From: a virus
Lineage: Duplodnaviria; Heunggongvirae; Uroviricota; Caudoviricetes
DNA length: 64,000 bases
Direction: 5' to 3' (one strand)
Virus record (IMG/VR): IMGVR_UViG_3300029288_004479
The translations under genes were made by a program, and so were the position numbers. The notes below the pieces were generated by a model. That model was given only the letters and a program-made list of their open reading frames with translations. It did not search any database and had not been told where the DNA came from. Shown here piece after piece: positions 3,528 to 63,534 of the stretch (the first letter of the stretch is position 1; each line of letters begins with the position of its first letter).

Positions 3528-3752
3528 CATGCTCTCAAAAGAAACTATAATAAAAGGACTGGGTATATTTGGCGGCGCATATTTATTTATAACGAATGGT
3601 TTAAAGGGTGAGTAAAACCCCCCGGATTTATCCGTGGGGATAAAACGAACCCTTTGTCCGGTACTACGTTCATCAACAAGAAACATTATTCTTCACATAG
3701 AACTGTATAGTAGACAACTATATATGTGTCAACAGCATACAATAAAAGTGCA

Positions 3753-4142
3753 ATGGAGTATAAACATTCCAAAAACAAAGTGTTCCTAATGAACTATCAT
3801 TTAGTTTGGTGTCCGAAACGTAGGAAACCCGTTCTTGTTGATACGGTCAAGGAACGACTTGACCAGATAGTTCGTGAGGTCTGTAAAGAGAGGCAAGTAG
3901 ATATTCTGGCAATGGAGATAATGCCAGACCATATTCATTTATTCTTGTCAACGAACCCGGATATGCCAATTCAGGATGTGATACGGGTCATCAAGGGGAG
4001 AAGTTCTAACCATCTCCGGAAAGAGTTTCCCGACCTCTTGAAGTTGCCATCGTTGTGGACACACTCGTATTTCATCTCAACAGCAGGAAATGTTTGTTCT
4101 GAGACTATCCGAAGATATATTGAGGAGCAGAGTACTCAATGA
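3753..4142 (+). CDS. tnpA: IS200-type Y1 (HUH) transposase TnpA
   Basis: HIHLF HuH motif; YHLVWCPKRRK N-terminal block; ~130 aa. Confidence 0.85.
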   Translation: MEYKHSKNKVFLMNYHLVWCPKRRKPVLVDTVKERLDQIVREVCKERQVDILAMEIMPDHIHLFLSTNPDMPIQDVIRVIKGRSSNHLRKEFPDLLKLPSLWTHSYFISTAGNVCSETIRRYIEEQSTQ

Positions 4143-5317
4143 TTAACGTCACCCGGTATCGAGTATATCCCACGAGGGAACAAGCAGACACGATATTCAG
4201 ACAGTTTGGACTGTGTACTGATCTGAGAAACAAGTGTCTGGATACCGGAAATTTTGACGTTCGACAACTCCCAAACTTCAAGAAAGAAACACCGGAACTA
4301 AAAGAAGTTCATAGTGTAGTTTTGCAGAATATGATGTTCCAGATAAAAGAGAACATTAAAACGCTGTCGAAACTGAAAAAGAAAGGTTTTCGTGTAGGTA
4401 AACTCCGGCACAAACCGGTCAGGTCGCTCATCTACGAGCAGACAGGGTATAAGTTCATCGGGAACCGGTTGTCGTTGAGCAAGGTTGGTAACCTGCGTAT
4501 TTCGATCTCGCGGTCAATACCGGGCGTCGTGAAACAGATAGTTTTGAAGTTCACTAAGACCCACAAGTGGTTCGTGTCGGTGATATCGAGAACGACCGAT
4601 GAACCGGTGAAGTGTGAGAGTACCCGAATCGTGGGTATTGACATGAACCTGATAGTATTCTCGCACGACAGTGACAATCACACCAAACAGCATCCGCATA
4701 ATGTTAGAAACGCTTTGAGACAGTTAAGCAGAGCACAGCGCAAGATGAGTCGGAAAGTCAAGGGTAGTCATAACCGTAGGAAACAGAGGGTAATAGTTGC
4801 CCGAGTCCATGAAACGGTACAAAACCGTCGAGATGATTTCCTGCACAAGTGGAGTACCAAGTATGTATATCAAAGTAACTATTCCGGGATTGCGGTCGAG
4901 AAGTTGAATATCAGGGATATGATAAAATATAATATGGATATGCAGGATAAGAAGAAGCGTCGATCTAAAAACCGCAATACTTTTGATGCAGCGTGGTTCA
5001 AGGCGAGAACGTTTCTCCAATACAAGGCTGAAAGAGCTGGTATTGACTTCAGGGTAGTTGATCCTGCATATACCACACAAACCTGTTCAAAGTGCGGTCA
5101 CCGACAAAAGATGGACGAAAGTATAAGAACATATATTTGTCCGGTCTGTGGGATGACAACAAACAGGGATCTGAACGCCGCTATTAATATTAAAAAGAGG
5201 GCGTTCGGTGTAGGGTTGGTGACACCCGAATCCAAGCTTGTGGAGATTGATACCTCTATTCCGAACAGCGACTCGGAACAAGTATCGACCAATGAAACAA
5301 GAATCCCCTGCCTTTAG
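4139..5317 (+). CDS. tnpB: TnpB (OrfB) RuvC-like RNA-guided nuclease of IS605 family
   Basis: C-terminal CSKCG...CPVCG zinc finger; typical OrfB length and layout. Confidence 0.85.
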   Translation: MINVTRYRVYPTREQADTIFRQFGLCTDLRNKCLDTGNFDVRQLPNFKKETPELKEVHSVVLQNMMFQIKENIKTLSKLKKKGFRVGKLRHKPVRSLIYEQTGYKFIGNRLSLSKVGNLRISISRSIPGVVKQIVLKFTKTHKWFVSVISRTTDEPVKCESTRIVGIDMNLIVFSHDSDNHTKQHPHNVRNALRQLSRAQRKMSRKVKGSHNRRKQRVIVARVHETVQNRRDDFLHKWSTKYVYQSNYSGIAVEKLNIRDMIKYNMDMQDKKKRRSKNRNTFDAAWFKARTFLQYKAERAGIDFRVVDPAYTTQTCSKCGHRQKMDESIRTYICPVCGMTTNRDLNAAINIKKRAFGVGLVTPESKLVEIDTSIPNSDSEQVSTNETRIPCL

Positions 5318-5761
5318 GCATGGGGAGTCTCAAGTATGATAGCAATAAAAAGATGTTTAGTAGATAGGAATGCAGGAGAGGTGCAACAACAGTGATTACG
5401 AAAGAGAATTTACCTGTTATAATTATCTGTAGTATTATTGGATTTTTGTTCCTGTTTAGTGTACTGATGATACTAAATTATATTTCAGGGCATATGGATA
5501 CAACCACAATTACCTTATCCGCAGTAACGGCACTTATACTGGATCTCATAGCAGTATGTATAGCAACATATCAAACATGGGGAATTAAAAGATAACTGGA
5601 GTATGATCAATCATGTCAAGCCTCGGAGAAATAATCAGGACGTTTGAAACCCGGAAGAACGTTGCGAAAGCGAAGATCGATACGGGGTATGATATCGAAC
5701 GACAGAAATTAGTATATGATATTTACTCGGAAGCTCTGGTCGATCTAAAAAGAATCAGGAG

Positions 5762-10193: not shown

Positions 10194-11749
10194 GAGGAAT
10201 GTTATAGATGAGGCAGCAAGAAAACCCCTGTTTTAAAACGGGGGATGAATTGTGTTAATCTATTTTTGTAAAAGTATATAACGTTAAAAAACAAATATAT
10301 GGTGTGGTAATGCAAACGGTATCGATCTATGCACGGCTTACCAAGAAACAGTTTCAAATAGTGGATACGTTAAGTTACCTGTCGAAGAACCTGTATAACG
10401 TCGGGGTGTATAACGCCCGACAGCATTACCACGAGATCCAGTTAGCGGGTTTAAGTAACCTTCGTCCGGATTTGATCAGTCTGTGGATGGATACGAAAAA
10501 GACATATTTACCGTATTCACGCGGGAAAGATAACCCGTATAAGGATTACAGTAATTATAATCGGTCGAAACAGAACGAGAATTACGGATTACTTCATTCG
10601 CAAGCAGCACAACAGACCCTTAAATCCGTTGAAGAGGGGTATATTAGTTTCTTCGGGTTAATAAAACTAAAAACGAGTGACAACGAGGATAATCCAGTGC
10701 GTCCTCCTCATTACCTCGATACCGAACACGGTCGGTATAAAGTGGCGTTTCCACGGAACAGTCTATCAATAAAAAAGAAAGGTGTCACTCTCGGAATGTC
10801 AGTTAAATTCAAGAAACTTCACGGATATACCGGGAAGGAACTGACATTCAAGATCCCGTCGTATCTAAAACCGCACCAGATCCGGGAAGTCACATTGTTA
10901 CCCATCCACGGTGGGAAATGCTATAAACTCTCGTTCAGTTACGAGATAAAAAGTATAAATAAGCCGGAGTTAAACCCCGACAAATACCTTGGTATCGACT
11001 TAGGCGTAAACAACTTTGCGGCACTTATCGAGAACGCTACCGGGACTGCCACTCTGTTAGATGGCAAGTATCTAAAATCACTGAACCGGTGGTATAACAA
11101 GACCAACGCAAAGTTACAGAGCGTCAAAGACAAACAGGGTATCTCGGGAATAACCAATCGTCAACACCGAATGCTTATAAAAAGAGAGAACCGTATCAGC
11201 GAAGCGATTAACCGATACGTAAACTTCGTGATCGACTACGCGATCAGATACAAGATAGGAAACATCGTATGTTTACGATGGGACGGCATCAAGCAGAACC
11301 GCAAAGCTTCCAAAAAAGGTAACCAGAACTTTGTTCAGATACCCTACGATATGTTCCGCACCCGTCTCGAAAACAAATGCAACCTATACGGCATCAAGTA
11401 CCACGGGAAAGACAGCGAAGCATACACGTCACGAACCGACGCTCTCGCATACGACGAGATCAAAGCGCAACCATACGGTAAATCACGCCGTATTAAACGC
11501 GGTCTGTATAAAAGCATTACCGGGGTAATCTTAAACGCTGATATTGTTGGTTCAATGAACCAGATCCGCAAAGTAGCTGGCGACGCTCCTGTAAAGGAAA
11601 TAGCTAGTAGTGGCCGTTTCAACCGGCCTGTGAGAATAAGGTTGGCTTTCGAGCCGGCAAACTTCTCCAAAGTAATTAGAACGAGATGTGTTGTTCACCA
11701 GAACGACCTCCCGCTCAATCCTCCCGTTTTAACGGGAGGTAGTTGAATT
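10194..11749 (+). mobile_element. IS200/IS605-family tnpB-only element (IS1341-type)
   Basis: LE hairpin CCCCTGTTTTAAAACGGGGG at ~10217; RE hairpin CCTCCCGTTTTAACGGGAGG at ~11720; both ends are repeated at 54483-54810. Confidence 0.8.
10310..11746 (+). CDS. tnpB: TnpB RNA-guided nuclease
   Basis: OrfB-like N-terminus; 3' end overlaps the RE/omega-RNA scaffold region. Confidence 0.85.
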   Translation: MQTVSIYARLTKKQFQIVDTLSYLSKNLYNVGVYNARQHYHEIQLAGLSNLRPDLISLWMDTKKTYLPYSRGKDNPYKDYSNYNRSKQNENYGLLHSQAAQQTLKSVEEGYISFFGLIKLKTSDNEDNPVRPPHYLDTEHGRYKVAFPRNSLSIKKKGVTLGMSVKFKKLHGYTGKELTFKIPSYLKPHQIREVTLLPIHGGKCYKLSFSYEIKSINKPELNPDKYLGIDLGVNNFAALIENATGTATLLDGKYLKSLNRWYNKTNAKLQSVKDKQGISGITNRQHRMLIKRENRISEAINRYVNFVIDYAIRYKIGNIVCLRWDGIKQNRKASKKGNQNFVQIPYDMFRTRLENKCNLYGIKYHGKDSEAYTSRTDALAYDEIKAQPYGKSRRIKRGLYKSITGVILNADIVGSMNQIRKVAGDAPVKEIASSGRFNRPVRIRLAFEPANFSKVIRTRCVVHQNDLPLNPPVLTGGS

Positions 11750-11975
11750 CAAACGGCTGGGAGAAGTAATTGAAAAGCACCCAATTGGAGTGCATGCCGT
11801 GGAAACATCGTTTCCATATGATGTAAAGGAATAAGGGGTATTCAGTAATGACAAAACTACTCAAGTTATCTTATGTGAGAATGATCCGTGGAAAAAAGGA
11901 ATGTGCTGAATTGGAAAAACAAATTGAAAAAGACTTTAAACATAAAAAAATAATTAAATTATAATACAATATTGT

Positions 11976-12064
11976 GCGCACGTAGGAAAGCGGATTATTC
12001 CACCGGACTTCTATCGTAAAAGGAAGATATCCGGATATCGTGGGTTCAAATCCCATCGTGCGCG
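11976..12064 (+). tRNA. tRNA-Arg(UCU) with 15-nt canonical-position intron (12014-12028)
   Basis: Acceptor GCGCACG/CGTGCGC; T-arm GTGGGTTCAAATCCCAT; anticodon CUUCUA pairs with intron GAAG (BHB). Confidence 0.75.
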
Positions 12065-12301
12065 TGCGCCCGGAACGGAAGCATCGAACGCATCCTTAAC
12101 TAAGATGCGGGGTAAATACCAGATGTATGACCGGAACAGATTGGGGCTATCCTAATCGAGGGGTTTAAGTCCCCGATCTGTGGCGTAGGCACTTCGGTGC
12201 CATAATAATAGAAGAACAGTGCGCTCGTAGTCTAGCCCGGACAAGGCTCCAGATTCCTAATCTGTTTGTCATGGGTTCAAATCCCCTCGGGATCGTTTAT
12301 T

Positions 12302-17428: not shown

Positions 17429-17798
17429 AAGAATTATCATTTCTCTAATATATAAATAAAATTCACGACGTGAGTATATAGGTTAAATATAAATAGAATG
17501 AAAAATTGCTATATATTCGATAACTATATATACACCATTCAACCTCCAATATGTTAGAAACGTATTTAATGTTAAATAACATAATATCTACAATAAAGGC
17601 AAATTATGGTTGATATCATCGCATTCACAATACCGAACACACCAGCAGTTCATGCACTTGTATGTTTAGCCATAGCGTTAAGTATGTTTGGGACATATAA
17701 ATTTTTAGATAATATGAACTTCTTCATCAAACACCGCAAAGAAGTTGTTGAATATATCCGTGCTTGGCGGAACGGACACGAGTAATATTGTGTTCGTT

Positions 17799-17871
17799 GG
17801 GTTTGTAGCATAGTAACAAGTGCGTTCGCCTCCAAAGCGAAAAGGCGAGGGTGCAATTCCCTTCAAGCCCA
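17799..17871 (+). tRNA. tRNA-Trp(CCA) with atypical T-loop (UGCAAUU, G at position 55)
   Basis: Acceptor GGGTTTG/CAAGCCC; D-stem GCAT/GTGC; anticodon arm TTCGC-CTCCAAA-GCGAA. Confidence 0.65.
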
Positions 17872-17893
17872 TTAAATAAATGTGGTGGTATTA

Positions 17894-18773: not shown

Positions 18774-19853
18774 CAGGTTTACTCTTCTCAGGTCTCTGCA
18801 TTAGCGGAGAAGTCCGGTAACGGCACAGAACTTATTTCATTGTATATCCCCGGAACGAAACGGGTCGATGATATCACTCAAAGATTACGGGACGAACATT
18901 GTTCATGTGGCAATATCAAAAGTAAACAGACCAGAACAAACGTCCAGAAAGCGTTATCAGCAATAATCGCACGGTTATCTGGAGGTATCAAAACCTTCCC
19001 GGAAAACGGTATAATAATCTATTGTGGGGAAGTCGCGTTAGATCGTGGCGATAAAACCGAGTTCGAATATTATACATTCACACCGCCGCAACCGGTAAAA
19101 TCGTTTAGTTACAAATGTGACGCCAAGTTCGATACGGGTGACGCGCTCGCGCTCGCATCTGAAAAAGATACATATGCATTAATTGTGTTGGATCTACAGG
19201 AAGCGTGTTGGGGGACGCTTGAAGGATCAGCAATTCATGTTATGGGAACTTATGATTCAATCGTGCCGAACAAGCACGGACAAGGGGGGCAATCACAACA
19301 CAGGTTTGAACAATTAAGGCAGATTGCAATCAATGAATATTTTATAAAACTCTCGGAACGTGTTAACACATCGTTCCTCCCCTTGCTTGAGAAAAGCGTT
19401 CTCAAAGGCATTCTAATCGGCGGGTGTGGTATGACGAAAGACGAGTTCGTGAAAAGCGAGCATATGCACCACGAGTTACGGAAGGTTATTATTGGCACGT
19501 TTGACACGTCATATACTAACGAATATGGGTTAACAGAACTGGTCGAAGCATCGAAGAACAACCTGAAAGATATCGGGTTACGCGATGAGAAGATAGCATT
19601 CGACGAGTTCCTGAAAGAGTTGGCACGCGAATCTGGGAAAGTTGCATATGGAGTATCGGAAGTTCTACACAAAGCCGAGATCGGGCAGGTCAAGCGGGTG
19701 TTATTATCAACGTCTCGTGTTAACTTATATGATCAGATTGAGGAGAAAAACACTACTAATTATCAATTAGTATTAATCTCAAAAGATTCCGATAGCGGGT
19801 CGATGCTCGACAAAGGGTTCGGTGGGATTGTGGCGGTGTTGAGGTATGGATAG
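18774..19853 (+). CDS. prf1: archaeal peptide chain release factor aRF1 (domains 1-3), with no canonical start codon downstream of the in-frame TGA
   Basis: GNGTELISLYIP, NIKS, YxCxxxF (YKCDAKF) and GGQ (HGQGGQSQHRF) motifs; the first ATG/GTG/TTG in frame is TTG at 18840, inside the conserved domain. Confidence 0.8.
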   Translation, partial: QVYSSQVSALAEKSGNGTELISLYIPGTKRVDDITQRLRDEHCSCGNIKSKQTRTNVQKALSAIIARLSGGIKTFPENGIIIYCGEVALDRGDKTEFEYYTFTPPQPVKSFSYKCDAKFDTGDALALASEKDTYALIVLDLQEACWGTLEGSAIHVMGTYDSIVPNKHGQGGQSQHRFEQLRQIAINEYFIKLSERVNTSFLPLLEKSVLKGILIGGCGMTKDEFVKSEHMHHELRKVIIGTFDTSYTNEYGLTELVEASKNNLKDIGLRDEKIAFDEFLKELARESGKVAYGVSEVLHKAEIGQVKRVLLSTSRVNLYDQIEEKNTTNYQLVLISKDSDSGSMLDKGFGGIVAVLRYG

Positions 19854-26778: not shown

Positions 26779-27347
26779 AATCACCGTATGTTATTGGAAT
26801 ATGTGGCAGGACGTGTAGTGGCAAATCAACGGTTGTTGCCGAATTAGAGCGATCATTACCGAACGTATTGCATATTAAACAGGACAAGTTCTTCAAATTA
26901 CCTCATGACAAATCAATAAATTGGGAATCTCCCGATGCATTACGTAATGATCAACTGATCTATACGATTAAAAGGCTAAAAAACAATATGTCGGCACATA
27001 TCCCATCTCACGCATGGACGGAAAACTTTGATCGGGAAGTGTACCCGAAGGATTACATACTTATCGAAGGGTATCTGTTATTTGCAGTTGATGAGTTATA
27101 TCCTTTATTTGACAAAAGGATATGGATAGACGTATCGGATGAGATATTAATCAGCCGTAGGTTGAACCGCGCGTCAAATGGACGACTTGACGATATTGGA
27201 TATGTAAAAAATGTGGTTATACCATGTTCAAAACAATACGAATCCATTCAGAAATCACGCGCTCACATTATCATAGATGGGAACCGCGATAAGAACGAGG
27301 TTATAGAAGAATTTAAACGGTCGGTTCTTGGCGGTATTAAGGTATGA
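26775..27347 (+). CDS. uridine/cytidine kinase-like P-loop nucleoside kinase
   Basis: IGICGRTCSGKST P-loop; IKQDKFFK; ILIEGYLLF; RIWIDVSDEILISRRLNR. Confidence 0.65.
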   Translation: MKSPYVIGICGRTCSGKSTVVAELERSLPNVLHIKQDKFFKLPHDKSINWESPDALRNDQLIYTIKRLKNNMSAHIPSHAWTENFDREVYPKDYILIEGYLLFAVDELYPLFDKRIWIDVSDEILISRRLNRASNGRLDDIGYVKNVVIPCSKQYESIQKSRAHIIIDGNRDKNEVIEEFKRSVLGGIKV

Positions 27348-28657
27348 AATCGTATATAGTTGCAGGGATGGGATTCGGCGATGAAGGGAAAGGCAGTATT
27401 GTAGACTTCCTTGCAGACAAATATAATATTAAAAATACTGTCAGGTATAATGGAGGGAATCAGGCAGCACATCACGTTGTAAGAAATGGTATACTGCATT
27501 GTTTCAGCCAATGGGGATCATCTACACTATTACCTGATACCAAGACGATTATTAGTAACTATACGTTAATTGAACCATTTGCATTAGAAAACGAAGCAAA
27601 TACCTTGAAGAGTAAAGGGATATCAGATGTATATGAACGGGTGGTTATCGATGATCGGTGTTTGGTAGTAACGCCGATGCACAAACTGATCAATCAGATG
27701 AAAGAGATTACCAGTCGTAATAGCAGTTGTGGATGCGGAGTTGGGGAAACAGTATCGGATTCCAACAGGTTTAGTAAATATGCCTTACGTTCCGGCGATA
27801 TTATGGATGTAAATACATCATCAAAAAAACTTGATTTCATATGGAGGGTTAAAGTTGATCAGGCCGAACAGATAGTTGAAGACAATCCTGAAAACGCGAG
27901 TATAAAAGAAAGATATGATATTATTAAACATCTCGATACGATCAAACTGGCAGAAGAATATCTTGAAATCGCGAATAATCTTTCTATCGGGTCAGTCGAT
28001 AAGTTCTTATCAGAACCCTCTATATATGAAGGAGCACAGGGGGTATTACTCGATGTCAATCACGGATTCCACCCACACGTTACAAAAACAACAACGACGT
28101 TCGAGAATGCTGAGACCCTTTGTAAAACCCCCTATGAAAAAGTGGGTGTGATAAGACCGTATATTACAAGACATGGAAACGGGATATTACCTACAGAAGA
28201 TAAAATGCTTGAAAAAGCAATCCCGGATATCCACAATACATATAATGAGTGGCAAGGCAAGTTCAGGATAGGGTGGCAAGATCTTATACTAATGAAATAT
28301 GCAGTTAACCTAGCAAAACCAGATTATATCGCAATGACTAATATAGATAAAATCGCTGGTATGAATAAGATTAAGATTGGGATATCATACGAATATTACG
28401 GGAATGCAAATGTAGACCGATACTTTGAATGTAAAAGGAATGGTCATACCTGCATTTTACAAACTCTTAAAAAAGAGAGCGTGAGTGGTCAGTGTCAGGA
28501 ACTTAACAGTATCTTTAACGAGAGTACTCCCGTTTATAAGACATTCGATAATTACAAAGATTACTTTACGTTTCTCGAATCAGATGAAGGTATAAACACA
28601 CCGATCAATATCCTATCTTTTGGTATAGAAGCGGCAGATAAATATCTAATCAACTAA
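27344..28657 (+). CDS. purA: adenylosuccinate synthetase
   Basis: GFGDEGKGSIVD and GGNQAAHHV N-terminal motifs; ~437 aa. Confidence 0.8.
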   Translation: MKSYIVAGMGFGDEGKGSIVDFLADKYNIKNTVRYNGGNQAAHHVVRNGILHCFSQWGSSTLLPDTKTIISNYTLIEPFALENEANTLKSKGISDVYERVVIDDRCLVVTPMHKLINQMKEITSRNSSCGCGVGETVSDSNRFSKYALRSGDIMDVNTSSKKLDFIWRVKVDQAEQIVEDNPENASIKERYDIIKHLDTIKLAEEYLEIANNLSIGSVDKFLSEPSIYEGAQGVLLDVNHGFHPHVTKTTTTFENAETLCKTPYEKVGVIRPYITRHGNGILPTEDKMLEKAIPDIHNTYNEWQGKFRIGWQDLILMKYAVNLAKPDYIAMTNIDKIAGMNKIKIGISYEYYGNANVDRYFECKRNGHTCILQTLKKESVSGQCQELNSIFNESTPVYKTFDNYKDYFTFLESDEGINTPINILSFGIEAADKYLIN

Positions 28658-29265: not shown

Positions 29266-29364
29266 GCTCCCGTAGTGTAGTGGCAATCATGTGAGACCTT
29301 CAAGAAAACAAGTGGTTAATTTCGAGGAAATCTCACGATATGGGTTCGAATCCCGTCGGGAGCA
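29266..29364 (+). tRNA. tRNA-Glu(UUC) with 27-nt canonical intron (29303-29329); C at position 33
   Basis: Textbook hBHBh' motif (TGAGA/TCTCA, CCTT/GAGG, AAA bulge); mature anticodon loop CCUUCAA. Confidence 0.7.
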
Positions 29365-29367
29365 TAT

Positions 29368-29438
29368 GCATCCTTGATCCAGAGGCAAGATACCAGCTTG
29401 ACATGCTGGAAACACAGGTTCGATCCCTGTAGGATGCA
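29368..29438 (+). tRNA. tRNA-Val(GAC)
   Basis: Acceptor GCATCCT/AGGATGC; anticodon loop TTGACAT; T-loop TTCGATC. Confidence 0.8.
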
Positions 29439-29441
29439 TGG

Positions 29442-29512
29442 GCACTCTTGATCTATAGGTATGATTTCTGGTCGCCAGCCAGAGAGAACGGGTTCGAATC
29501 CCGTAGAGTGCA
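29442..29512 (+). tRNA. tRNA-Gly(GCC); C at position 33
   Basis: Acceptor GCACTCT/AGAGTGC; anticodon arm TCTGG-TCGCCAG-CCAGA; T-arm ACGGGTTCGAATCCCGT. Confidence 0.7.
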
Positions 29513-29536
29513 TCCCCAAAAAGAGGGAAAACAAAT

Positions 29537-29782
29537 ATGACCGTAGATGAAACGTTAGATCGATTAGAACGAATAGGCACGCGGAAATCGTTTGTATATC
29601 ACGAAGATGTCTTGAAATTCGTCGATAGTGAACGAAATAAAGATCCAGAGATGCCGTATGGTAAGAAGCGGATGTTAGAGGATATCGAAACAGACGTTAT
29701 AACTCATATGGGTAATGGTAGAAAAACTATCCGGAACGAAGAGTTACGGGGTATAATTATACGCCAAAGAAGTTATCAATAA
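29537..29782 (+). CDS. hypothetical protein embedded in tRNA array
   Basis: 81 aa ORF; GAGGG SD upstream. Confidence 0.4.
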   Translation: MTVDETLDRLERIGTRKSFVYHEDVLKFVDSERNKDPEMPYGKKRMLEDIETDVITHMGNGRKTIRNEELRGIIIRQRSYQ

Positions 29783-29853
29783 GCTTCCGGAGTCTGTCGG
29801 AATGATGCATCGTTCTCGGCGATGCGGAATGGGTTCAATTCCCATCGGAAGTA
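29783..29853 (+). tRNA. tRNA-Glu(CUC)
   Basis: Anticodon arm CATCG-TTCTCGG-CGATG; T-arm ATGGGTTCAATTCCCAT. Confidence 0.75.
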
Positions 29854-29855
29854 TT

Positions 29856-29928
29856 GGGACAGTAGATCAGTTGGGAGATCGCTACACCGAAGATGTAGTC
29901 GTCACCGGTTCGAATCCGGTCTGTCCCG
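29856..29928 (+). tRNA. tRNA-Phe(GAA); C at position 33
   Basis: Acceptor GGGACAG/CTGTCCC; D-stem GATC/GATC; anticodon arm CTACA-CCGAAGA-TGTAG. Confidence 0.8.
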
Positions 29929-30108
29929 TCTCCTGTGGGAGAAATCTGCCATCAGTGGCGTGGCGTGGGCCTTAGGTTACATCAACCGAACGATCTAAAC
30001 GCTGGTACAGGTGAAATGGACGATCATTCAAGGCCAGTTACGGTCATCGAAATCCACGGGGTGCGACTCGTTCTAACACCTCAAAGAAACCCACCACAGG
30101 AGTTAATT

Positions 30109-30180
30109 GCGCTCGTAGCAGAGTGGTAATGCGGCAGGCTCTTAACCTGAAGATCGTGCGTTCGATCCGCACCGGGCGCA
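30109..30180 (+). tRNA. tRNA-Lys(CUU)
   Basis: Acceptor GCGCTCG/CGGGCGC; anticodon loop CTCTTAA; T-arm GTGCGTTCGATCCGCAC. Confidence 0.75.
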
Positions 30181-30252
30181 TTCCCCAAAAAAGGAGTATA
30201 AAATGTAAAAACCAGAGGATATAAATGTAAAGGCAACCAACAAGGATATGTT

Positions 30253-30323
30253 GCGACGATGATCTAACGGTATGATCCTACCCTTCCAAGGTAGAGGCCC
30301 GGGTTCAATTCCCGGTCGTCGCA
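30253..30323 (+). tRNA. tRNA-Gly(UCC)
   Basis: Acceptor GCGACGA/TCGTCGC; anticodon arm CTACC-CTTCCAA-GGTAG. Confidence 0.8.
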
Positions 30324-30397
30324 TGTCCCGTAGCACAGTCCGGTAGTGCGGCGTTCTTATAAGGCGTATGTCATGGGTTCGATCCCCATCGGGACAA
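30324..30397 (+). tRNA. tRNA-Ile(UAU); anticodon stem has three G-U pairs
   Basis: Acceptor TGTCCCG/CGGGACA; D-stem GCAC/GTGC; anticodon loop CTTATAA. Confidence 0.6.
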
Positions 30398-30400
30398 CTA

Positions 30401-30475
30401 GGGCGAGTAGCATAGTCCGGCTAATGCGTCAGTCTGATAAGCTGAAGACCGCAGATTCAAATTCTGCCTCGCCCA
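30401..30475 (+). tRNA. tRNA-Ile(GAU)
   Basis: Acceptor GGGCGAG/CTCGCCC; anticodon arm TCAGT-CTGATAA-GCTGA. Confidence 0.8.
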
Positions 30476-30599
30476 TTTCATTGAGTTTTTTCAAAACGAA
30501 ACAAAATTAGACCATTTTGTTGACGCTAACAAAATGGTAATACAATACAACCATCGAGTTAAAGAAATCTATTTATATCCTTATCCCGTATAACTACTT

Positions 30600-31076
30600 A
30601 TGAAAATGTCATATATAATAATTTTAAGTTGTATTCTATTGGCTGGATTAGCAGTAATGCCGGTATCAGCATTTACAGCGAATACACTTGATTTTAAAAT
30701 CGATGAAAAAGGTGATGCACAGGTTGTGATGACCTATTCTCTGAATGCAATTGAGAGTGGTGCAATAGTTGCAAAAGGTGTAGGGTCAGTGGGTGTAGTT
30801 CAGGCACTTGTGGACGAATCGTTACCATATTCGGCAAAGGTAAAAACGGTCGAGTTGGGTAAGGCAACAATGACGATTCCGGGTTTTGCAACGGGGAATG
30901 CGGGTATAAAGACCACAAAAGAATTCTCAATGCAACCAGCGCAGGACAAAGCAAGTAAATATTGGTTTGAGTTCGGCAGTAACTTCGCTCCAAAAGAGAC
31001 TACAATAACGTTTGAAAATGGTAAAGTATATACGTATAAAAATCAAATGCGTATCCCAACAACTTCAAACACATAA
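30600..31076 (+). CDS. secreted protein with signal peptide
   Basis: N-terminal hydrophobic segment followed by AVMPVSAF. Confidence 0.45.
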   Translation: MKMSYIIILSCILLAGLAVMPVSAFTANTLDFKIDEKGDAQVVMTYSLNAIESGAIVAKGVGSVGVVQALVDESLPYSAKVKTVELGKATMTIPGFATGNAGIKTTKEFSMQPAQDKASKYWFEFGSNFAPKETTITFENGKVYTYKNQMRIPTTSNT

Positions 31077-31081
31077 TTTTC

Positions 31082-31155
31082 CCGTCAGTGTCAGAGCGGC
31101 TAACGAGACCGGCTGTAGACCGGTTAAATCGCAGGTTCAAATCCTGCCTGACGGA
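31082..31155 (+). tRNA. tRNA-Tyr(GUA); D-arm weakly paired
   Basis: Acceptor CCGTCAG/CTGACGG; anticodon arm ACCGG-CTGTAGA-CCGGT; T-arm GCAGGTTCAAATCCTGC. Confidence 0.65.
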
Positions 31156-33829: not shown

Positions 33830-34900
33830 GTGGTGGATAAAATGTCGAAACAGAACCGCGATGTAGTAAGAGACGCGGTGTTTAAACGAGATAAGGAGAA
33901 ATGCGTGGTTCCCTACTGTAAGTGCAAACCGGACGACGCCCACCACCTCATTGAACGCAAACTATGGGATGAGAATACCGAGAACGGTGGATATATTCTG
34001 GAAAATCTGGTATCCGTATGTGAACGGCACCACAAACTCTGCGAGAACAATACGATCCTCCCGCGCACGTTACGTGCATATGCAGGAATAAACGAAGTCC
34101 TCCTACCAAAATCATTTGATAAAACAAAAGAATACGATAAGTGGGGTCGGGTGCTTGAACCACCAGCAAGAGAGCGAATGAAATACCCGCATACGCCGTA
34201 TTTACCATTCAGTCCAAGTGCAGATGAAAAGGATGTAAGGGAAAGCGGATATATGGATATACGGTGCCTGCTGAACAAACCGTTGCACATCTCAATAAAG
34301 ATGGATGGTAGCAATATATTGCTGACAAGAAATAATATCGCAGCTCGGAACGGATATGATGCGACTGGCAAGAGTTTCGATATGGCGAAACAAACCCATT
34401 CGATGTTTAAACACCTTATCCCGGAAGATGAGATGTGGTTTGGGGAATGGCTGTATGCAAAACACAGTATCCATTATATTGAGAATCTCAAACTAACGAA
34501 CTATCTGCAACTGTTCGGGATATACAATAAGAAAACACACATGTGGGCCGGTATTACTGATATACATGATCGGGTTAGCGAAGTAATAATCGAAACCGAT
34601 ATTACGCCGCCGCTTGCAGTGGGAGTGAATATCCCGGAAAAAGCACCAAGCATATCAGATATCCTTAACGGCAAAAGTGTTTACACGAACGAGAAAGACC
34701 TGAAAAACGAGTTAATTAAAATTGGGAATAGTGCGGTTAAGGGTGGGCACGAAGGTATAATTGTCAGGAACATGTATCCCTTCCATCACTCTCGATGGAA
34801 TGAGAACATAGCGAAGTTTGTCCGGGCGAATCATATCCAGACGAACAAACATTGGAGTCGTGGGCCGATCACTCGGAACGAAATAATGGAGAATGTATAA
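33830..34900 (+). CDS. HNH endonuclease domain fused to ATP-dependent RNA ligase (Rnl2-type nucleotidyltransferase)
   Basis: HNH: CVVPYC..C...HH......N..SVCERHH; ligase motif I KMDGSN, III FGEWL, IV HEGIIVRN, V IAKFVRANH. Confidence 0.65.
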   Translation: MVDKMSKQNRDVVRDAVFKRDKEKCVVPYCKCKPDDAHHLIERKLWDENTENGGYILENLVSVCERHHKLCENNTILPRTLRAYAGINEVLLPKSFDKTKEYDKWGRVLEPPARERMKYPHTPYLPFSPSADEKDVRESGYMDIRCLLNKPLHISIKMDGSNILLTRNNIAARNGYDATGKSFDMAKQTHSMFKHLIPEDEMWFGEWLYAKHSIHYIENLKLTNYLQLFGIYNKKTHMWAGITDIHDRVSEVIIETDITPPLAVGVNIPEKAPSISDILNGKSVYTNEKDLKNELIKIGNSAVKGGHEGIIVRNMYPFHHSRWNENIAKFVRANHIQTNKHWSRGPITRNEIMENV

Positions 34901-36684: not shown

Positions 36685-36834
36685 ATGACAAGAATTGAAG
36701 AAGTTAAGTGCTCGTTTTGTGGTAAACCAACAGTCCAACCAACGTCAAACGACGATGACGAACGGGCGGCATGGTCAAACGGATTATGTATACGCTGTTA
36801 CAAAAGCGGTCAGGATGATGAGTGGAAGGGATGA
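36685..36834 (+). CDS. small zinc-ribbon protein (49 aa), source copy of a duplicated module
   Basis: CSFCGK...C.RC; about 85% nt identity to 38428-38556. Confidence 0.4.
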   Translation: MTRIEEVKCSFCGKPTVQPTSNDDDERAAWSNGLCIRCYKSGQDDEWKG

Positions 36835-38288: not shown

Positions 38289-38556
38289 TCCCAATTATGA
38301 AGATCCGTGTTTATCTTGTAGATATAGGGAACAAGCGTGCGGTTATATTCTTGATGGAAAGAAATATGAAGATGCCTGCATGTCAGTGAAAATATGGTTA
38401 AACCATCAGAAGAAGAAAGACGCTGTGAAATGTTCGTTCTGTGGCAAAACAATACTTAACCCCACTTCAAACAACGATGACGAACGGGCGGCGTGGTCAA
38501 ATGGATTGTGTATGCGCTGCTACAAAAGTGGTCAGGATGCTGAGTGGAAAGGATGA
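38266..38556 (+). CDS. Cys-rich protein carrying the duplicated zinc-ribbon module at its C-terminus
   Basis: C-terminal 40 aa almost identical to 36685..36834. Confidence 0.45.
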   Translation: MGMSIPYDPNYEDPCLSCRYREQACGYILDGKKYEDACMSVKIWLNHQKKKDAVKCSFCGKTILNPTSNNDDERAAWSNGLCMRCYKSGQDAEWKG

Positions 38557-38913: not shown

Positions 38914-39331
38914 AAGTTTACATTACTAATGTATAAAGTTATTTATTTGACGGTTAAATTACAACAATTAAAAACTGGAGAAGAATCACATGACAACGTA
39001 TCTTCAATGTAAAAAATGTGGGTATAAATTTGCAGTCTCAACAACGGCGTATTTAGCCGGGGTTGTTAACTGTCCACGATGTGGTGTGCCACATGCAGAC
39101 AAGTATTCGAATGAGAGTAATAATAGAAATATCCACTAAAACAAGGATTGAAACACCCTCATCTTGATTTCTAATTCCCCCGAATCCGGAGGAATTAAAA
39201 AAAAGAAAGAATAAGGATTAGATTCTGTTAAGTTCATATTAATATCATACAAACAAATAAAACAGAAATCAGATCATCATTATAAAGAAAAAACATATAT
39301 AGAATGATGCAAGATTATATTCAGGTGAAAT

Positions 39332-42055: not shown

Positions 42056-42129
42056 GCACCCGTAGCGAAGTTGGTTATCGCGTCGGTTTTACATGCCGAA
42101 GACCGTCGGTTCGAACCCGACTGGGTGCA
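42056..42129 (+). tRNA. tRNA-Val(UAC)
   Basis: Acceptor GCACCCG/TGGGTGC; D-stem GCGA/TCGC; anticodon arm TCGGT-TTTACAT-GCCGA. Confidence 0.8.
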
Positions 42130-42210
42130 TCAGAGGATAGATTCGGGGATAATGCTCCGTAAGGATAAGTCTTTATCATTCCGGCTATCCGCTGTAGAAA
42201 AACAACACGA

Positions 42211-42339
42211 GGGTTGGTATCTCAGTTGGTAGAGAGTCCGGCTGTTACAAGAGAGAATAAAAGATTGTGTGATTCATGATTTTGACCCCTCTCTCTTGCA
42301 GAAACCGGAATGTCAAGAGTTCGAGCCTCTTCCGACCCG
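42211..42339 (+). tRNA. tRNA-Asn(GUU) with 56-nt canonical intron (42248-42303)
   Basis: Perfect hBHBh' (CTGT/GCAG, TAC and AAA bulges, 7-bp h'); acceptor GGGTTGG/CCGACCC. Confidence 0.8.
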
Positions 42340-42360
42340 TATTTTTGATGAGGTAGGATC

Positions 42361-42564
42361 ATGAAAAAGGTAACATACGGAATCCAATATTGCAACAGCT
42401 TATGTCCCTATTTCTTCAGGAACTACGACGACGGAGATAATATCTGGTGTGCGAAGATCCGAAAGAAAATATATGATTACGACGGGGGAATGATCTTTGG
42501 TGATCGGGCGTATCGAGACATTCCGAAAGAATGCCCATTAGAAAACTGTCCGGAAAAACAATGA
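42361..42564 (+). CDS. hypothetical Cys-containing protein
   Basis: GGTAGG SD upstream. Confidence 0.4.
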   Translation: MKKVTYGIQYCNSLCPYFFRNYDDGDNIWCAKIRKKIYDYDGGMIFGDRAYRDIPKECPLENCPEKQ

Positions 42565-42634
42565 GATTATACGAACCTTCACTTATTTTGTGCAAAAATA
42601 TAAATCTGCAAACAGCAAATAACGTATAAAGAGT

Positions 42635-42719
42635 AACGGGGTGGGGTAGTCAGGATAACCCGCTAGACCCATAATCTAGAGACCTCACGGCTTGCGAAGG
42701 TTCGAATCCTTCCCCCGTT
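42635..42719 (+). tRNA. tRNA with CAU anticodon (Met or Ile2 type); C at position 33; 16-nt variable region (possible non-canonical intron)
   Basis: Acceptor AACGGGG/CCCCGTT; D-stem GGGT/ACCC; anticodon arm CTAGA-CCCATAA-TCTAG; T-arm GAAGGTTCGAATCCTTC. Confidence 0.6.
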
Positions 42720-42739
42720 ATATAAGTTTTGGAGTTGTA

Positions 42740-54473: not shown

Positions 54474-54482
54474 TTATAGATA

Positions 54483-54810
54483 AGGCAGCAAGAAAACCCC
54501 TATTTTCAAACAGGGGATGAATTGTGTTAACCCAAACAAATAAATCTGAACATATCGAAACTATGGGTGACCATACAATGTTAAATATTGTATGTGTGTT
54601 GTTCTCACAACAAGTTTGTGCGAACATAATGTAGCTGGCGACGCTCCTGTAAAGGAAATAGTCAGTAGTGGTCGTTTCAACCGGCCCGTGAGAATAAGGT
54701 TGGCTTTCGAGCCGGCAAACTTCTCCAAAGTAATTAGAACGAGATGTGTTGTTCACCAGAACGACCTCACGCTCAATCCTCCCGTTTTAACGGAAGGTAG
54801 TTGAAGGCGA
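54483..54810 (+). mobile_element. tnpB-less miniature IS200/605 derivative (MITE/PATE-like) retaining LE and RE of the 10194-11749 element
   Basis: LE ~57 nt and RE ~175 nt are each near-identical to element A; the internal ~1.2 kb is deleted. Confidence 0.75.
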
Positions 54811-55459
54811 AGAGAGATTTGAATTAATTGATCAGGATGTGAAGTCAACACCCGGTACATTTAATTTAACCCCGGATGAATTTGAACAAGTGAGACGACA
54901 CTGTCAACTACCCCGCCATAAATGACGGGGCTTGCGAATGGCTAAGCAGGACTAAACAGTAGACTAGACCGAAACAGGTGTGAGAACACAATGTCAAACG
55001 CGAAACGAACTACAAGAACGGATCTCAGTGCTTCCCTAGCTCTGCCCACTTCTGGGTGCGCCAACCCCGGAGTTCCGGAAACGGAACTAAGTTCGTCTTG
55101 CAAGGTCGAAGGGAAATTTAACCCGAAGAAAATTCGGAGTCATAATATGCGAGTACCAGTAATGGATGCCGAAAGACACCCGTTGATGCCGACCACAGGG
55201 GTCAGGCATCAGCGTACTGGAACAAATTAGGCATTTTCTGTAGAATCCTAAAAAAGACAGTTGTACCAAACAATTAATTGGATAATAAGATTCCTCTTAA
55301 TAACGACCGGTCTTGCACTAATGTATATTGGTTTTAAGAACCGGCCCGTGAATGATCCGGGTTCATTGAGATCAGGGATACTTATAATAGTCTCAGCGGT
55401 TGCAGTTTTTATTGTAATGTTTTTAATATACGCAAATTACGTATTTCAATAAAAAAAGA

Positions 55460-62913: not shown

Positions 62914-63120
62914 ATGAAAAACTTCGAAACCTTTGTTTTTTTAATGGCCGTTGTGACAGGGTTGATCCTTCTAATAATTAATTATGATAAAAATACATCA
63001 GTAGTGGATATATTACCAGATTTCTGCCATACTGTTTCATGTTTGTTTTGCGCTCCGTTTCTTTCAATTTATATATCAATAAAAATATACAATATATTTA
63101 ATCGGGATAGTGAGTCGTAG
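62914..63120 (+). CDS. small membrane protein
   Basis: Two TM segments. Confidence 0.35.
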   Translation: MKNFETFVFLMAVVTGLILLIINYDKNTSVVDILPDFCHTVSCLFCAPFLSIYISIKIYNIFNRDSES

Positions 63121-63314: not shown

Positions 63315-63534
63315 TGATCCGATATGGGTGTTTATTTTAGTGTGCGCCTTTACATTGAATGGGATGGCACTATCAATATTAATTCAAGAGTTCCCACACA
63401 CTCTTTATGAGCAGATTACATTATTTACGGCAACAGTGTCTATTATATATGGTATTGCGCTCCGTTTCTTTTAATATTTACAATAGTCAAAATTTGAGAG
63501 GGTCTATGAAATTTGTGATTTTAACATGTACGAG

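What the first reader, a model, noticed from the sequence alone, without database searches (positions are those of the whole stretch)
10194..11749. TnpB-only IS element together with a 330-bp tnpB-less derivative that keeps the omega-RNA scaffold (54483-54810)
Both ends of the element at 10194-11749 are near-identically repeated at 54483-54810 with the whole tnpB body deleted. The left end is ~57 nt, with the hairpin CCCCTGTTTTAAAACGGGGG followed by GATGAATTGTGTTAA. The right end is ~175 nt, runs from TAGCTGGCGACGCTCCTGTAAAGG to GGTAGTTGAA, and includes the hairpin CCTCCCGTTTTAACGGGAGG.

In TnpB systems the right end and the 3' end of the gene encode the omega-RNA, and the guide is the adjacent ~16 nt of flank (TTCAAACGGCTGGGAG for copy A, GGCGAAGAGAGATTTG for copy B). 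So the miniature copy is a candidate trans-acting guide-RNA locus, or a non-autonomous element mobilised by TnpA supplied from 3753-4142.
Basis: partly seen in the sequence, partly recalled or inferred. Interest (0 to 1): 0.6.

Follow-up and report, generated by a model that had tools for sequence, protein, structure and literature searches.

The report
TnpB insertion sequence plus miniature guide-RNA copy
A jumping gene that carries an RNA-guided nuclease (TnpB) sits in a large archaeal mobile genome together with a 328-base gene-less copy that keeps both transposon ends and the whole guide-RNA scaffold; this kind of miniature element is already known, so it is a clean but ordinary example.

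Summary
Element A (10206-11747) is a tnpA-less IS200/IS605 element that encodes a 480-aa TnpB. Element B (54478-54805, 328 nt) shares A's 53-nt left end (57-nt repeat including TTAT, 93%) and A's 178-nt right end (96%). The 97 nt between B's ends are unrelated to A.

A related genome (L097) carries the exact empty site, TTAT|GG. B is therefore a discrete insertion 3' of TTAT with no target duplication.

The 178-nt right end is a conserved structured RNA. Across 25 relatives it forms 36 base pairs, 21 of them with compensatory changes, and 96% of cells are paired against 26-48% in slid controls. B keeps all of this RNA, and no conserved structure lies upstream of the breakpoint.

Closer relatives carry a divergently oriented Y1 tnpA, so both A and B are non-autonomous. 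The window's own TnpA (3726-4142) is only 36-40% identical to that cognate TnpA, and its hairpins have a bulged T that A and B lack. It is a doubtful mobiliser.

The TnpB lacks the canonical RuvC-II glutamate and the zinc finger. This matches a known "rearranged" archaeal type.

B fits the published definition of a PATE that carries an omega-RNA, so it is a new member of a known kind. Expression and trans use of the RNA are untested.

Next to B lies an IscB guide-RNA (HEARO-like) relic.

The parts
10202..10205 (+). TTAT target/TAM of element A. Not part of the element.
   Evidence: Homologous to the TTAT at B, whose empty site is seen in L097. The motif covaries with the 4 nt 5' of the left-end hairpin across relatives.
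10206..10258 (+). Left end (LE) of element A, with hairpin CCCCTGTTTTAAAACGGGGG at 10225-10244 and DNA guide AAAA at 10221-10224.
   Evidence: Repeat D6. LE alignment with L004, L005, L013 and L099. DNA fold -6.2 kcal/mol.
10304..11746 (+). tnpB, 480 aa. The RuvC-II glutamate is replaced by Arg325. Asp232, Glu372 and Asp413 are conserved. There is no Cys4 zinc finger. The stop codon lies 1 nt before the element end.
   Evidence: Pfam and NCBIfam matches. Alignments. AlphaFold model and Foldseek matches to TnpB/Cas12f.
11570..11747 (+). Omega-RNA scaffold plus right end (RE) of element A. The terminal hairpin is at 11720-11739, and the element ends with TGAA.
   Evidence: Covariance model R1 scores 162 bits. 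The consensus structure has 21 of 36 pairs with compensatory changes.
11748..11763 (+). Predicted guide of A (TTCAAACGGCTGGGAG), i.e. the flank immediately 3' of the RE.
   Evidence: The boundary is set by relatives inserted at different sites. The only match in the window is itself. The guide role is inferred.
54474..54477 (+). TTAT target/TAM of element B.
   Evidence: Empty site in L097: CCGTAATTAT|GGCAAAAAGAG.
54478..54530 (+). Left end of miniature element B, with hairpin at 54497-54516 (one A.C mismatch).
   Evidence: Repeat D6 at 93%. DNA fold -3.7 kcal/mol. The hairpin variant is shared with L006.
54531..54627 (+). Interior of B, unrelated to A or to tnpA-bearing relatives. No gene and no recognisable promoter.
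   Evidence: blastn and local alignment scores equal those of shuffled sequence.
54628..54805 (+). Complete omega-RNA scaffold plus right end of B. The terminal hairpin at 54778-54797 has one C.A mismatch.
   Evidence: Covariance model R1 scores 157 bits over model positions 1-174. Helices 1-5 keep their pairing. DNA fold of the RE is -4.7 versus -9.9 kcal/mol in A.
54806..54821 (+). Predicted guide of B (GGCGAAGAGAGATTTG).
   Evidence: Lies immediately after the RE boundary. The only match in the window is itself. The guide role is inferred.
3726..4142 (+). Y1 TnpA of a different, complete IS200/IS605 element (its tnpB is at 4139-5317).
   Evidence: Pfam Y1_Tnp 141 bits. It is 36-40% identical to the cognate TnpA of A's lineage. 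Its element has bulged-T hairpins.
54903..55121 (+). Neighbouring relic C: a HEARO-like (IscB omega-RNA) sequence. Its 5' end is the reverse complement of an RE terminus of this transposon family. It is followed at 55147-55230 by a 27-codon ORF with a PLMP motif.
   Evidence: Rfam HEARO 52.1 bits, E 1e-9, full-length match, but below the gathering score of 83. R1 hit on the minus strand at 54905-54940. It holds the only PLMP motif in the window.

Best explanation
Element A (10206-11747) is a non-autonomous IS200/IS605-family insertion sequence. It has a left-end hairpin, a promoter-like TATA, tnpB, and an omega-RNA scaffold that overlaps the last 59 codons of tnpB and ends at the right-end hairpin.

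Element B (54478-54805) is a palindrome-associated transposable element (PATE) of the same lineage. It keeps only what acts in cis: the 53-nt left end and the 178-nt omega-RNA/right end. An unrelated 97-nt filler joins the two.

Shown:
- Both elements sit 3' of TTAT.
- B is a clean insertion with no target duplication.
- The right end is a conserved structured RNA, and B keeps it whole.

Inferred:
- A Y1 TnpA of the type found in close relatives (L004, L005, L013, L098, L099) excises and inserts the top strand. It recognises the hairpins and pairs TTAT and TGAA with the 4 nt 5' of each hairpin.
- Transcripts that read out of each right end give an omega-RNA whose guide is the adjacent ~16 nt of flank.
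- TnpB made by A can load either RNA. With B's RNA it would cut a B-less allele (TTAT + GGCGAAGAGAGATTTG) and restore B by recombination with an occupied copy. This is the published homing/retention role of TnpB, here supplied in trans.
For: Repeats and boundaries:
- The exact empty site in a 91%-identical relative, and a colinear alignment once B is removed, are.
- The P0012 relative is inserted at 5 or more different sites and always ends ...TTGAA.
- RE termini of 30 relatives are.
- The target motif covaries with the tetranucleotide 5' of the LE hairpin: TTAT/AAAA, TCAT/GAAA, CTAT/AGAA, TCAT/GAGA, TCAC/GAGG, TCAC/GAAG.
- The element's last 4 nt covary with the tetranucleotide 5' of the RE hairpin: TGAA/CAAT, TGAC/CAAG.

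Protein:
- TnpB identity is supported.

Omega-RNA:
- 96.1% of cells are paired, against 26-48% when partners are slid.
- 21 pairs have double changes, against 4-9 in the slid controls.
- No shuffle out of 500 reaches the observed score.
- Model R1 scores 162 bits on A and 157 bits on B.
- No conserved helix lies upstream of B's breakpoint.
- A/B differences inside helices 1 and 3 keep the pairing.

Relatives and literature:
- Meers et al. describe PATEs that encode omega-RNAs and need TnpB in trans (PMC10055086).
- Dyall-Smith et al. define archaeal PATEs, including one that keeps a C-terminal coding segment (PMC3119063).
Against: - Only one miniature copy was found. CM searches of the window and of about 170 kb of related loci found no other tnpB-less copy.
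- No cognate tnpA is in the window.
- B carries one mismatch in each TnpA-binding hairpin, and its RE stability is halved. It may no longer move.
- No promoter is recognisable in B, and there are no expression data.
- The TnpB lacks the canonical RuvC-II Glu and the zinc finger, so nuclease activity is assumed from conservation, not shown.
- The empty site of A was not found.
Confidence: 0.72

Rival explanations
1. B is an inert fossil. It would be a transposon remnant that is no longer mobile, is not expressed as a guide RNA, and survives only because it sits in a dispensable, already damaged intergenic stretch.
For: - B is a single copy.
- Each of its two hairpins has a private mismatch, and the RE fold is -4.7 versus -9.9 kcal/mol in A.
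- There is no evident promoter.
- The insertion split the start codon of a gene that has since lost about 320 nt relative to L097.
- An IscB guide-RNA relic lies 97 nt away, so the locus looks like an IS graveyard.
- Of the four changed codons in the retained TnpB reading frame, four are non-synonymous and two further changes are synonymous.
Against: - B's breakpoint falls within 6 nt of the first conserved helix, so the whole scaffold is retained.
- Substitutions in helices 1 and 3 preserve pairing.
- A matching, intact TnpB is encoded on the same replicon.
- B is identical in four assemblies.
Confidence: 0.22
2. A and B are mobilised by the TnpA encoded at 3726-4142 in the same window.
For: - It is the only Y1 transposase in the window.
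- Its element also has AAAA 5' of its left hairpin, which under the covariation rule predicts the same TTAT target.
- Its right-end hairpin resembles that of the P0012 relative (weak R1 hit of 11.6 bits).
Against: - It is 36-40% identical to the TnpA that accompanies this TnpB lineage in five relatives.
- Both of its own hairpins have a bulged T in the 3' arm, whereas the hairpins of A and B are unbulged.
- The terminal sequences differ: AGTCTCAAG versus TAGTTGAA.
- A cognate-type tnpA element, with hairpins nearly identical to A's, exists in the same sample on another contig (L004).
Confidence: 0.15
3. The TnpB is nuclease-dead, and A and B form a domesticated RNA-guided regulator (TldR-like), with B as a trans-acting guide locus aimed at some other gene.
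For: - The canonical RuvC-II Glu is replaced by Arg, and the zinc finger is absent.
- B is an orphan guide-RNA locus.
Against: - Asp232 (110/110), Glu372 (109/110) and Asp413 (108/110) are conserved across homologues. This fits the published 'rearranged RuvC-II' class, which is predicted to be active (PMC10691335).
- Both transposon ends are intact.
- Relatives are multi-copy at different sites.
- Each guide matches only its own flank in the window.
Confidence: 0.04

Closest known systems
PATEs (palindrome-associated transposable elements) derived from IS200/IS605 elements: Geobacillus stearothermophilus ISGst PATEs (Meers et al. 2023, PMC10055086) and Haloquadratum walsbyi PATEs such as HqIRS71 (Dyall-Smith et al. 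2011, PMC3119063)
   Same: B has no inverted terminal repeats, has subterminal hairpins at both ends, makes no target duplication and is too short to encode a protein. Like HqIRS71, it retains the 3' coding tail of tnpB. Like the Gst PATEs, it carries an omega-RNA that would need TnpB supplied in trans.
   Different: Only a single copy was found here, whereas the published cases form families. The host replicon is a methanogen-associated contig of at least 217 kb, not a bacterial or haloarchaeal chromosome. The interior filler is unrelated to the parent element.
TnpB-omega-RNA systems of IS200/IS605 (ISDra2, ISGst; IS1341-type tnpB-only elements)
   Same: The TnpB fold matches. The omega-RNA overlaps the 3' end of tnpB and the RE. 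The guide is the flank 3' of the RE. The TAM equals the TnpA target 5' of the LE. The element is tnpA-less and non-autonomous.
   Different: There is no Cys4 zinc finger, and the canonical RuvC-II Glu is replaced by Arg. The ORF runs through the whole scaffold to 1 nt before the element end. The omega-RNA has no Rfam family.
RuvC-II-rearranged 'derived' TnpB branches with a NADxN RuvC-III motif (RIIr clades, some archaea-only; Altae-Tran et al. 2023, PMC10691335)
   Same: It has the NADxN motif, has lost the beta-4 glutamate, has an invariant Glu before the next strand (xEAYTS), has lost the zinc finger, and has an archaeal distribution.
   Different: Assignment to a named RIIr branch was not tested. 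In this family the E-containing shorter relatives already carry Glu372, so both acids coexist in the sister group.
HEARO RNA / IscB omega-RNA (Rfam RF02033)
   Same: The neighbouring relic C aligns over the full HEARO model. It starts with GUCAACUACCCC at a transposon RE boundary and is followed by a PLMP-motif ORF start.
   Different: The score is below Rfam's gathering threshold (52 versus 83). iscB is reduced to 27 codons, and no left end was found. C is not part of elements A or B.

Membership tests
TnpB (RNA-guided nuclease of IS200/IS605) | Profile match above the curated threshold over the full length | tested here: met
   NCBIfam NF040570 guided_TnpB scores 125.4 bits (cutoff 100) over residues 11-421. 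Pfam OrfB_IS605 scores 59.7 bits (cutoff 30.5). Foldseek top hits are Cas12f and TnpB, E 1e-17 to 1e-11.
TnpB (RNA-guided nuclease of IS200/IS605) | RuvC-I Asp and RuvC-III Asp | tested here: met
   Asp232 is present in 110/110 homologues. Asp413, in the NADxN motif, is present in 108/110.
TnpB (RNA-guided nuclease of IS200/IS605) | RuvC-II Glu at the canonical strand position | tested here: not met
   Arg325 sits at that column. Of the 110 homologues, 63 have R, T, K, N, S or I there and 45 have E or D. Glu372 is invariant in 109/110 and is the candidate relocated acid (concept from PMC10691335).
TnpB (RNA-guided nuclease of IS200/IS605) | Cys4 zinc finger (TNB domain) | tested here: not met
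   There are no CxxC pairs in the region. Pfam TNB scores 24.1 bits, below the 26.3 cutoff. The model confidence is below 50 over residues 374-393.
TnpB (RNA-guided nuclease of IS200/IS605) | RNA-guided DNA cleavage next to a TAM | not testable with these tools
   This needs biochemistry or a plasmid interference assay.
IS200/IS605 transposon | Subterminal hairpins at both ends and no terminal inverted repeats | tested here: met
   LE and RE hairpins are present in A and B. The RE hairpin covaries in 25 relatives.
IS200/IS605 transposon | Insertion 3' of a 4-5 nt target without target-site duplication | tested here: met
   For B, the empty site in L097 is TTAT|GG and nothing is duplicated. For A this is inferred by homology only.
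IS200/IS605 transposon | Cleavage sites paired with the 4 nt 5' of each hairpin | tested here: met
   Six target/guide combinations at the LE and three at the RE all fit one pairing rule.
IS200/IS605 transposon | Y1 TnpA encoded in the element | tested here: not met
   Only 45 nt separate A's LE from tnpB, and B has no gene. Relatives L004, L005, L013, L098 and L099 carry a divergently oriented tnpA. A and B are therefore non-autonomous.
PATE | No ITRs, near-terminal palindromes, no target duplication, too short to encode a transposase (PMC3119063) | tested here: met
   B is 328 nt, contains only spurious ORFs, has hairpins at both ends, and is inserted at a clean empty site.
PATE | Multiple dispersed copies or evidence of mobilisation as a miniature | tested here: inconclusive
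   One copy was found, and no other appeared in the window or in about 170 kb of related loci. About 150 kb of the source contig and the host genome could not be searched.
omega-RNA | Conserved secondary structure overlapping the tnpB 3' end and the RE | tested here: met
   36 pairs, 21 with compensatory changes, 96% of cells paired against 26-48% in slid controls.
omega-RNA | Transcribed, processed and bound by TnpB, with the guide taken from the 3' flank | not testable with these tools
   No expression data are available. The guide position is inferred from the boundary.
HEARO / IscB omega-RNA (neighbouring relic C) | Rfam RF02033 at or above the gathering score | tested here: inconclusive
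   52.1 bits against a gathering score of 83, but E 1e-9 and a full-length alignment. The PLMP ORF fragment has no Pfam support.
TldR-like nuclease-dead TnpB regulators | Loss of transposon ends and immobilisation next to a regulated gene | tested here: not met
   Both ends are intact, and relatives are inserted at many sites.

The most novel reading that the evidence does not exclude
The large archaeal mobile genome keeps orphan guide-RNA cassettes as RNA-guided homing or gene-drive units. The cassettes are B for the rearranged TnpB of element A, and perhaps the adjacent IscB-type RNA for a host nuclease. During co-infection or in a polyploid host, TnpB from A loaded with B's RNA would cut genomes that lack B at TTAT+GGCGAAGAGAGATTTG and convert them. 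This would be a marker-exclusion effect between related viruses or plasmids, carried out by a 328-nt element with no gene of its own.
Probability: 0.12. Interest if true: 0.6.

Novelty: new member of a known kind. Interest (0 to 1): 0.3.

Why it matters
This is a clean, boundary-resolved example of a guide-RNA-bearing miniature IS200/IS605 element. It lies in a methanogen-associated giant mobile genome, paired with a zinc-finger-less, RuvC-II-rearranged TnpB.

It provides:
- a covariation-supported omega-RNA model for that archaeal TnpB lineage, which has no Rfam family;
- a predicted TAM (TTAT, more generally YYAT or TCAC);
- a natural test case for trans loading of an omega-RNA.

It does not change how these systems are understood. 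Both the miniature-element idea and the rearranged active site are already published.

Tried and rejected
- The phage database holds no near match to A, and protein hits there are 31% identical or less.
- IMG/VR holds no close relative of the TnpB, no RE pattern, no empty site for A and no match to A's right flank.
- I rebuilt the gene interrupted by A. The frame stays open for 28 more codons, but no homologue was found. A's empty site therefore remains unverified.
- The single metagenome DNA scan, using a conserved scaffold pattern, gave only two loci. Both are full-length tnpA+tnpB elements, not miniatures.
- A look-up of cluster member P0124 failed.
- CM searches of related loci, and of 7.5 kb beyond the right end of the window, found no further tnpB-less copy.
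- Rfam has no family for this omega-RNA.
- I looked for a left end of relic C on the minus strand. The only candidate lies inside a plausible 63-aa membrane-protein ORF, so I rejected it.
- I considered Asp327 as the replacement for the RuvC-II acid. It is not conserved within the Glu-less clade, so Glu372 is the better candidate. The structure model gives no coordinates with which to test proximity.
- PHROGs found no virion hallmark among ten large ORFs. 'Virus' versus 'plasmid-like element' is left open.
Full report
**Observation.** A 57-nt left segment (10202-10258 versus 54474-54530, 93%) and a 178-nt right segment (11570-11747 versus 54628-54805, 96%) are the two longest dispersed repeats in the window apart from tRNA arms. 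Their blastn E-values are 2.5e-19 and 1.1e-80. The quoted hairpins and flanks are correct. Between the repeats, copy A holds one ORF of 480 aa (10304-11746). Copy B holds 97 nt with no detectable similarity to A or to any relative; local alignment scores equal those of shuffled sequence.

**Source and reality of B.** The window is part of JGI contig Ga0378408_0000072 (216,809 bp); L093 is 100% identical over 5.3 kb. An independent ENA assembly carries B with no mismatch. Two more assemblies end 7 nt into B's left end at the same site. B is therefore not an assembly artefact.

**Replicon context.** The replicon has more than 14 tRNA genes, some with introns. It also encodes AglB, aRF1, PurA and an RNA ligase, and almost all genes are on one strand. 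The TnpB's relatives are from Methanoculleus, Methanocalculus, Methanocella and similar genera. It is a large archaeal mobile genome. No virion hallmark was found among ten large ORFs.

**Boundaries of B.** A relative 91% identical in the flanking gene (L097, NCBI GCA_040961665.1) reads CCGTAATTAT|GGCAAAAAGAGATTTAAATTA. The window reads CCGTAATTAT[328 nt]GGCGAAGAGAGATTTGAATTA. With B removed, the two align colinearly through the junction. B is therefore exactly 54478-54805. It is inserted 3' of TTAT with nothing duplicated, which is the IS200/IS605 signature. The insertion split the AT|G start codon of a downstream gene (MAKRDLN...). In the window that gene has also lost about 320 nt relative to L097.

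**Boundaries of A.** By homology, A is 10206-11747, also after TTAT. Its empty site was not found. With A removed, the interrupted upstream ORF stays open for 28 more codons, which is weak support.

**Evidence that these are transposase cleavage sites.** The P0012 relative (64% identical TnpB) occurs with identical sequence in at least five different flanks. The shared sequence always starts TCAC... and ends ...TTATTGAA. Across the family, the 4 nt before the element covary with the 4 nt just 5' of the left hairpin. The observed pairs are TTAT/AAAA (A, B), TCAT/GAAA (L005, L013, L099), CTAT/AGAA (L004, L098), TCAT/GAGA (six Methanoculleus sites), TCAC/GAGG (L021) and TCAC/GAAG (P0012). The last 4 nt of the element covary with the 4 nt 5' of the right hairpin: TGAA/CAAT, TGAC/CAAG and TGAC/CATG. 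One rule fits all of them (t1-g2, t2-g1, t3.g3, t4-g4). IS608's published TTAC/AAAG pair fits the same rule; I cite that pair from my own knowledge of the IS608 literature. This is the DNA-guide mechanism of Y1 TnpA. It fixes the TAM of A and B as TTAT and the guides as the sequence starting at 11748 and 54806.

**The protein.** The ORF passes NCBIfam guided_TnpB (125 bits, cutoff 100; residues 11-421) and Pfam OrfB_IS605. An AlphaFold model (pLDDT 72) matches Cas12f and TnpB structures at E 1e-17 to 1e-11. Two canonical features are missing. There is no Cys4 zinc finger, and the RuvC-II glutamate column holds Arg325.

**Active-site variation among homologues.** Of 110 homologues, the long (470-490 aa) clade has R, T, K, N, S or I at that column (63 proteins), while shorter relatives have E or D (45). 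Asp232, Glu372 and Asp413 are invariant in 110, 109 and 108 of 110. Glu372 precedes the AYTS strand. This is the kind of relocation, from strand beta-4 to beta-5, that Altae-Tran et al. describe for 'RuvC-II rearranged' TnpBs with a NADxN motif. Some of those branches are archaea-only and some lack the zinc finger (PMC10691335). I therefore treat the nuclease as probably active, but this is inference.

**The C-terminal tail.** The last 32 residues, encoded by the 3' half of the scaffold, have pLDDT of 25-33. This fits RNA-level rather than protein-level constraint on that stretch.

**Relatives show what was lost.** Five close relatives (79-83% TnpB identity: L004, L005, L013, L098, L099) have the layout LE, a Y1 tnpA (138-139 aa) plus a conserved 121-212 aa ORF of unknown function on the opposite strand, then tnpB and the RE. 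A has only 45 nt, including a TATA-like box, between the LE and tnpB. A is therefore itself a tnpA-less derivative, and B is a further reduced one. B is not a direct derivative of A. Its RE is 96% identical to A's, but its LE hairpin is the variant seen in L006.

**The RNA.** I aligned the last ~178 nt of 25 distinct relatives. RNAalifold gives five helices plus the terminal hairpin: 36 pairs, 21 of them with compensatory double changes. On the named structure, 96.1% of cells pair, against 26-48% when partners are slid by 1-3 columns. There are 21 covarying pairs against 4-9 in the slid controls, and none of 500 shuffles reaches the observed covariation score. A covariance model (R1) scores A at 162 bits and B at 157 bits over all 174 positions. 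It finds the same domain at the 3' end of every relative's tnpB. Extending the alignment 246 nt upstream adds no conserved helix.

**What B keeps of the RNA.** B's breakpoint (54628) lies 6 nt before the first helix, so B keeps the entire structured domain. Of the seven A/B differences, those in helices 1 and 3 keep pairing (a GU/GC swap, and C-G to U-G). One breaks a pair in the terminal hairpin (C.A). Rfam has no family for this RNA. Its position, its overlap with tnpB, its end at the RE and its structure match the definition of an omega-RNA. Transcription and TnpB binding are not shown.

**Can B still move, and by what?** B has one mismatch in each hairpin. The DNA folds are -3.7 versus -6.2 kcal/mol at the LE and -4.7 versus -9.9 kcal/mol at the RE. 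The TnpA at 3726-4142 belongs to a complete, different IS whose TnpB is canonical and has a zinc finger. It is 36-40% identical to the cognate TnpA. Both of its hairpins carry a bulged T in the 3' arm, whereas those of A and B are unbulged. A cognate-type element with hairpins nearly identical to A's is present in the same sample on another contig (L004) and in a 91-kb contig from another sample (L098). That transposase type is the more likely mobiliser; this is inference.

**Guides.** The 20 nt after each RE match nothing else in the window, even with 3 mismatches allowed. The only predicted target is therefore each element's own empty site. L097's site differs from B's guide at positions 4, 7 and 16.

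**Extra copies.** No other tnpB-less copy was found in the window, in about 170 kb of related loci, or in 7.5 kb beyond the window. A metagenome pattern scan returned only full-length elements. About 150 kb of the source contig and the host genome could not be searched.

**Neighbour.** The R1 model also hit 54905-54940 on the minus strand. This turned out to be the 5' end of a HEARO-like RNA on the plus strand (54903-55121). It matches Rfam RF02033 full-length at 52 bits, E 1e-9, which is below the gathering score of 83. A 27-codon ORF holding the window's only PLMP motif follows it. HEARO is the IscB omega-RNA, which Meers et al. describe as bounded by the transposon RE. Here its first bases are the reverse complement of a family-type RE terminus, and the CAAG/TGAC pairing rule is obeyed. 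This is an iscB-deleted relic lying tail-to-tail with B, 97 nt away. I found no left end for it.

**Mechanism and rivals.** The best reading, at confidence 0.72, is that B is a PATE-type non-autonomous derivative carrying a complete omega-RNA. A cognate Y1 TnpA would have mobilised it in trans, and TnpB from A could serve it in trans to re-cut its empty site. The identity and the insertion are shown; the RNA's use is inferred. The main rival (0.22) gives B the same identity but treats it as functionally dead. Mobilisation by the window's own TnpA is possible but disfavoured (0.15). A nuclease-dead regulator reading is unlikely (0.04).

**Comparison and novelty.** PATEs were defined in Haloquadratum, including one that keeps the C-terminal coding tail of tnpB (PMC3119063). 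Meers et al. state that PATEs often encode omega-RNAs that must be used in trans by TnpB from other IS copies (PMC10055086). Rearranged, zinc-finger-less archaeal TnpBs are catalogued (PMC10691335). The finding is therefore a correct and well-resolved new member of a known kind. Its value lies in the omega-RNA model, the predicted TAM, and a natural A/B pair for testing trans loading.

Noticed in passing
window 54903-55121 (+), 55147-55230 (+), guide region about 54884-54902: A HEARO-like (IscB omega-RNA) sequence lies tail-to-tail with B, 97 nt away. It matches Rfam RF02033 full-length at 52 bits, E 1e-9, below the gathering score. A 27-codon ORF (MRVPVMDAERHPLMP...) follows it and looks like a truncated iscB start. 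No left end and no intact iscB were found in the window. An ENA assembly breaks inside it.
   Followed up: partly
window 39118-39154 (+): A solitary CRISPR repeat (Rfam CRISPR-DR7, 45.8 bits, above the gathering score): GTAATAATAGAAATATCCACTAAAACAAGGATTGAAAC. There is no second copy in the window. A hairpin plus an A-run follows it. It could be a virus-borne solitary repeat unit and a clue to the host's CRISPR type.
   Followed up: partly
window 63631-64000 (+), continuing beyond the window (L100 8703-10520): A third TnpB gene, canonical and with a zinc finger, starts here. In the ENA contig it is called as a 605-aa ORF. That ORF reads through an RE-hairpin-like translation (EIPPLVGGGDS) into an ART-PolyVal ADP-ribosyltransferase domain (42 bits, cutoff 31). 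The likely cause is an IS inserted just upstream of an ART gene with read-through, but a true fusion is not excluded.
   Followed up: partly
window about 3600-5340 (+): A complete IS200/IS605 element: a Y1 TnpA (3726-4142) overlapping a canonical 392-aa TnpB (4139-5317). Both of its end hairpins have a bulged T in the 3' arm. Its exact boundaries were not determined.
   Followed up: partly
L004 2356-2724 (-), L005 568-933 (-), L099 501-866 (-), L098 1746-2138 (+), L013 499-1137 (-): Autonomous relatives of element A carry a conserved ORF of 121-212 aa, with no significant Pfam match, between tnpA and tnpB. It is co-oriented with tnpA. It may be an uncharacterised accessory gene of this IS lineage.
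   Followed up: partly
window 54806-54902 versus L097 678-1105: Relative to L097, the window lacks about 320 nt. These encode most of a 106-aa gene whose first 7 codons (MAKRDLN) survive right after B. The remnant is fused out of frame to the next gene, which relic C then interrupts.
   Followed up: partly
window 11975-12296, 17798-17872, 29266-31155, 42056-42721: At least 16 tRNA genes, several of 90-130 nt (intron-like). The window also encodes aRF1 (18840-19853), the AglB C-terminus (13-1329), PurA (27344-28657) and an RNA ligase (33830-34900), on a contig of at least 217 kb with nearly all genes on one strand. This is a giant archaeal virus or plasmid-like element of unknown type.
   Followed up: partly
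protein positions 325 and 372 of the ORF 10304-11746; 110 homologues: Shorter relatives carry both the canonical RuvC-II Glu and Glu372. The long clade keeps only Glu372. This looks like a stepwise relocation of the catalytic acid, with a two-acid intermediate still extant.
   Followed up: partly
window 36703-36834 and 38425-38556; 1835-1915 and 2041-2121; 63045-63086 and 63452-63493: Other dispersed or near-tandem direct repeats: 132 nt at 83%, 81 nt at 86%, and 42 nt at 79%. They are unrelated to the IS elements and were not examined.
   Followed up: no
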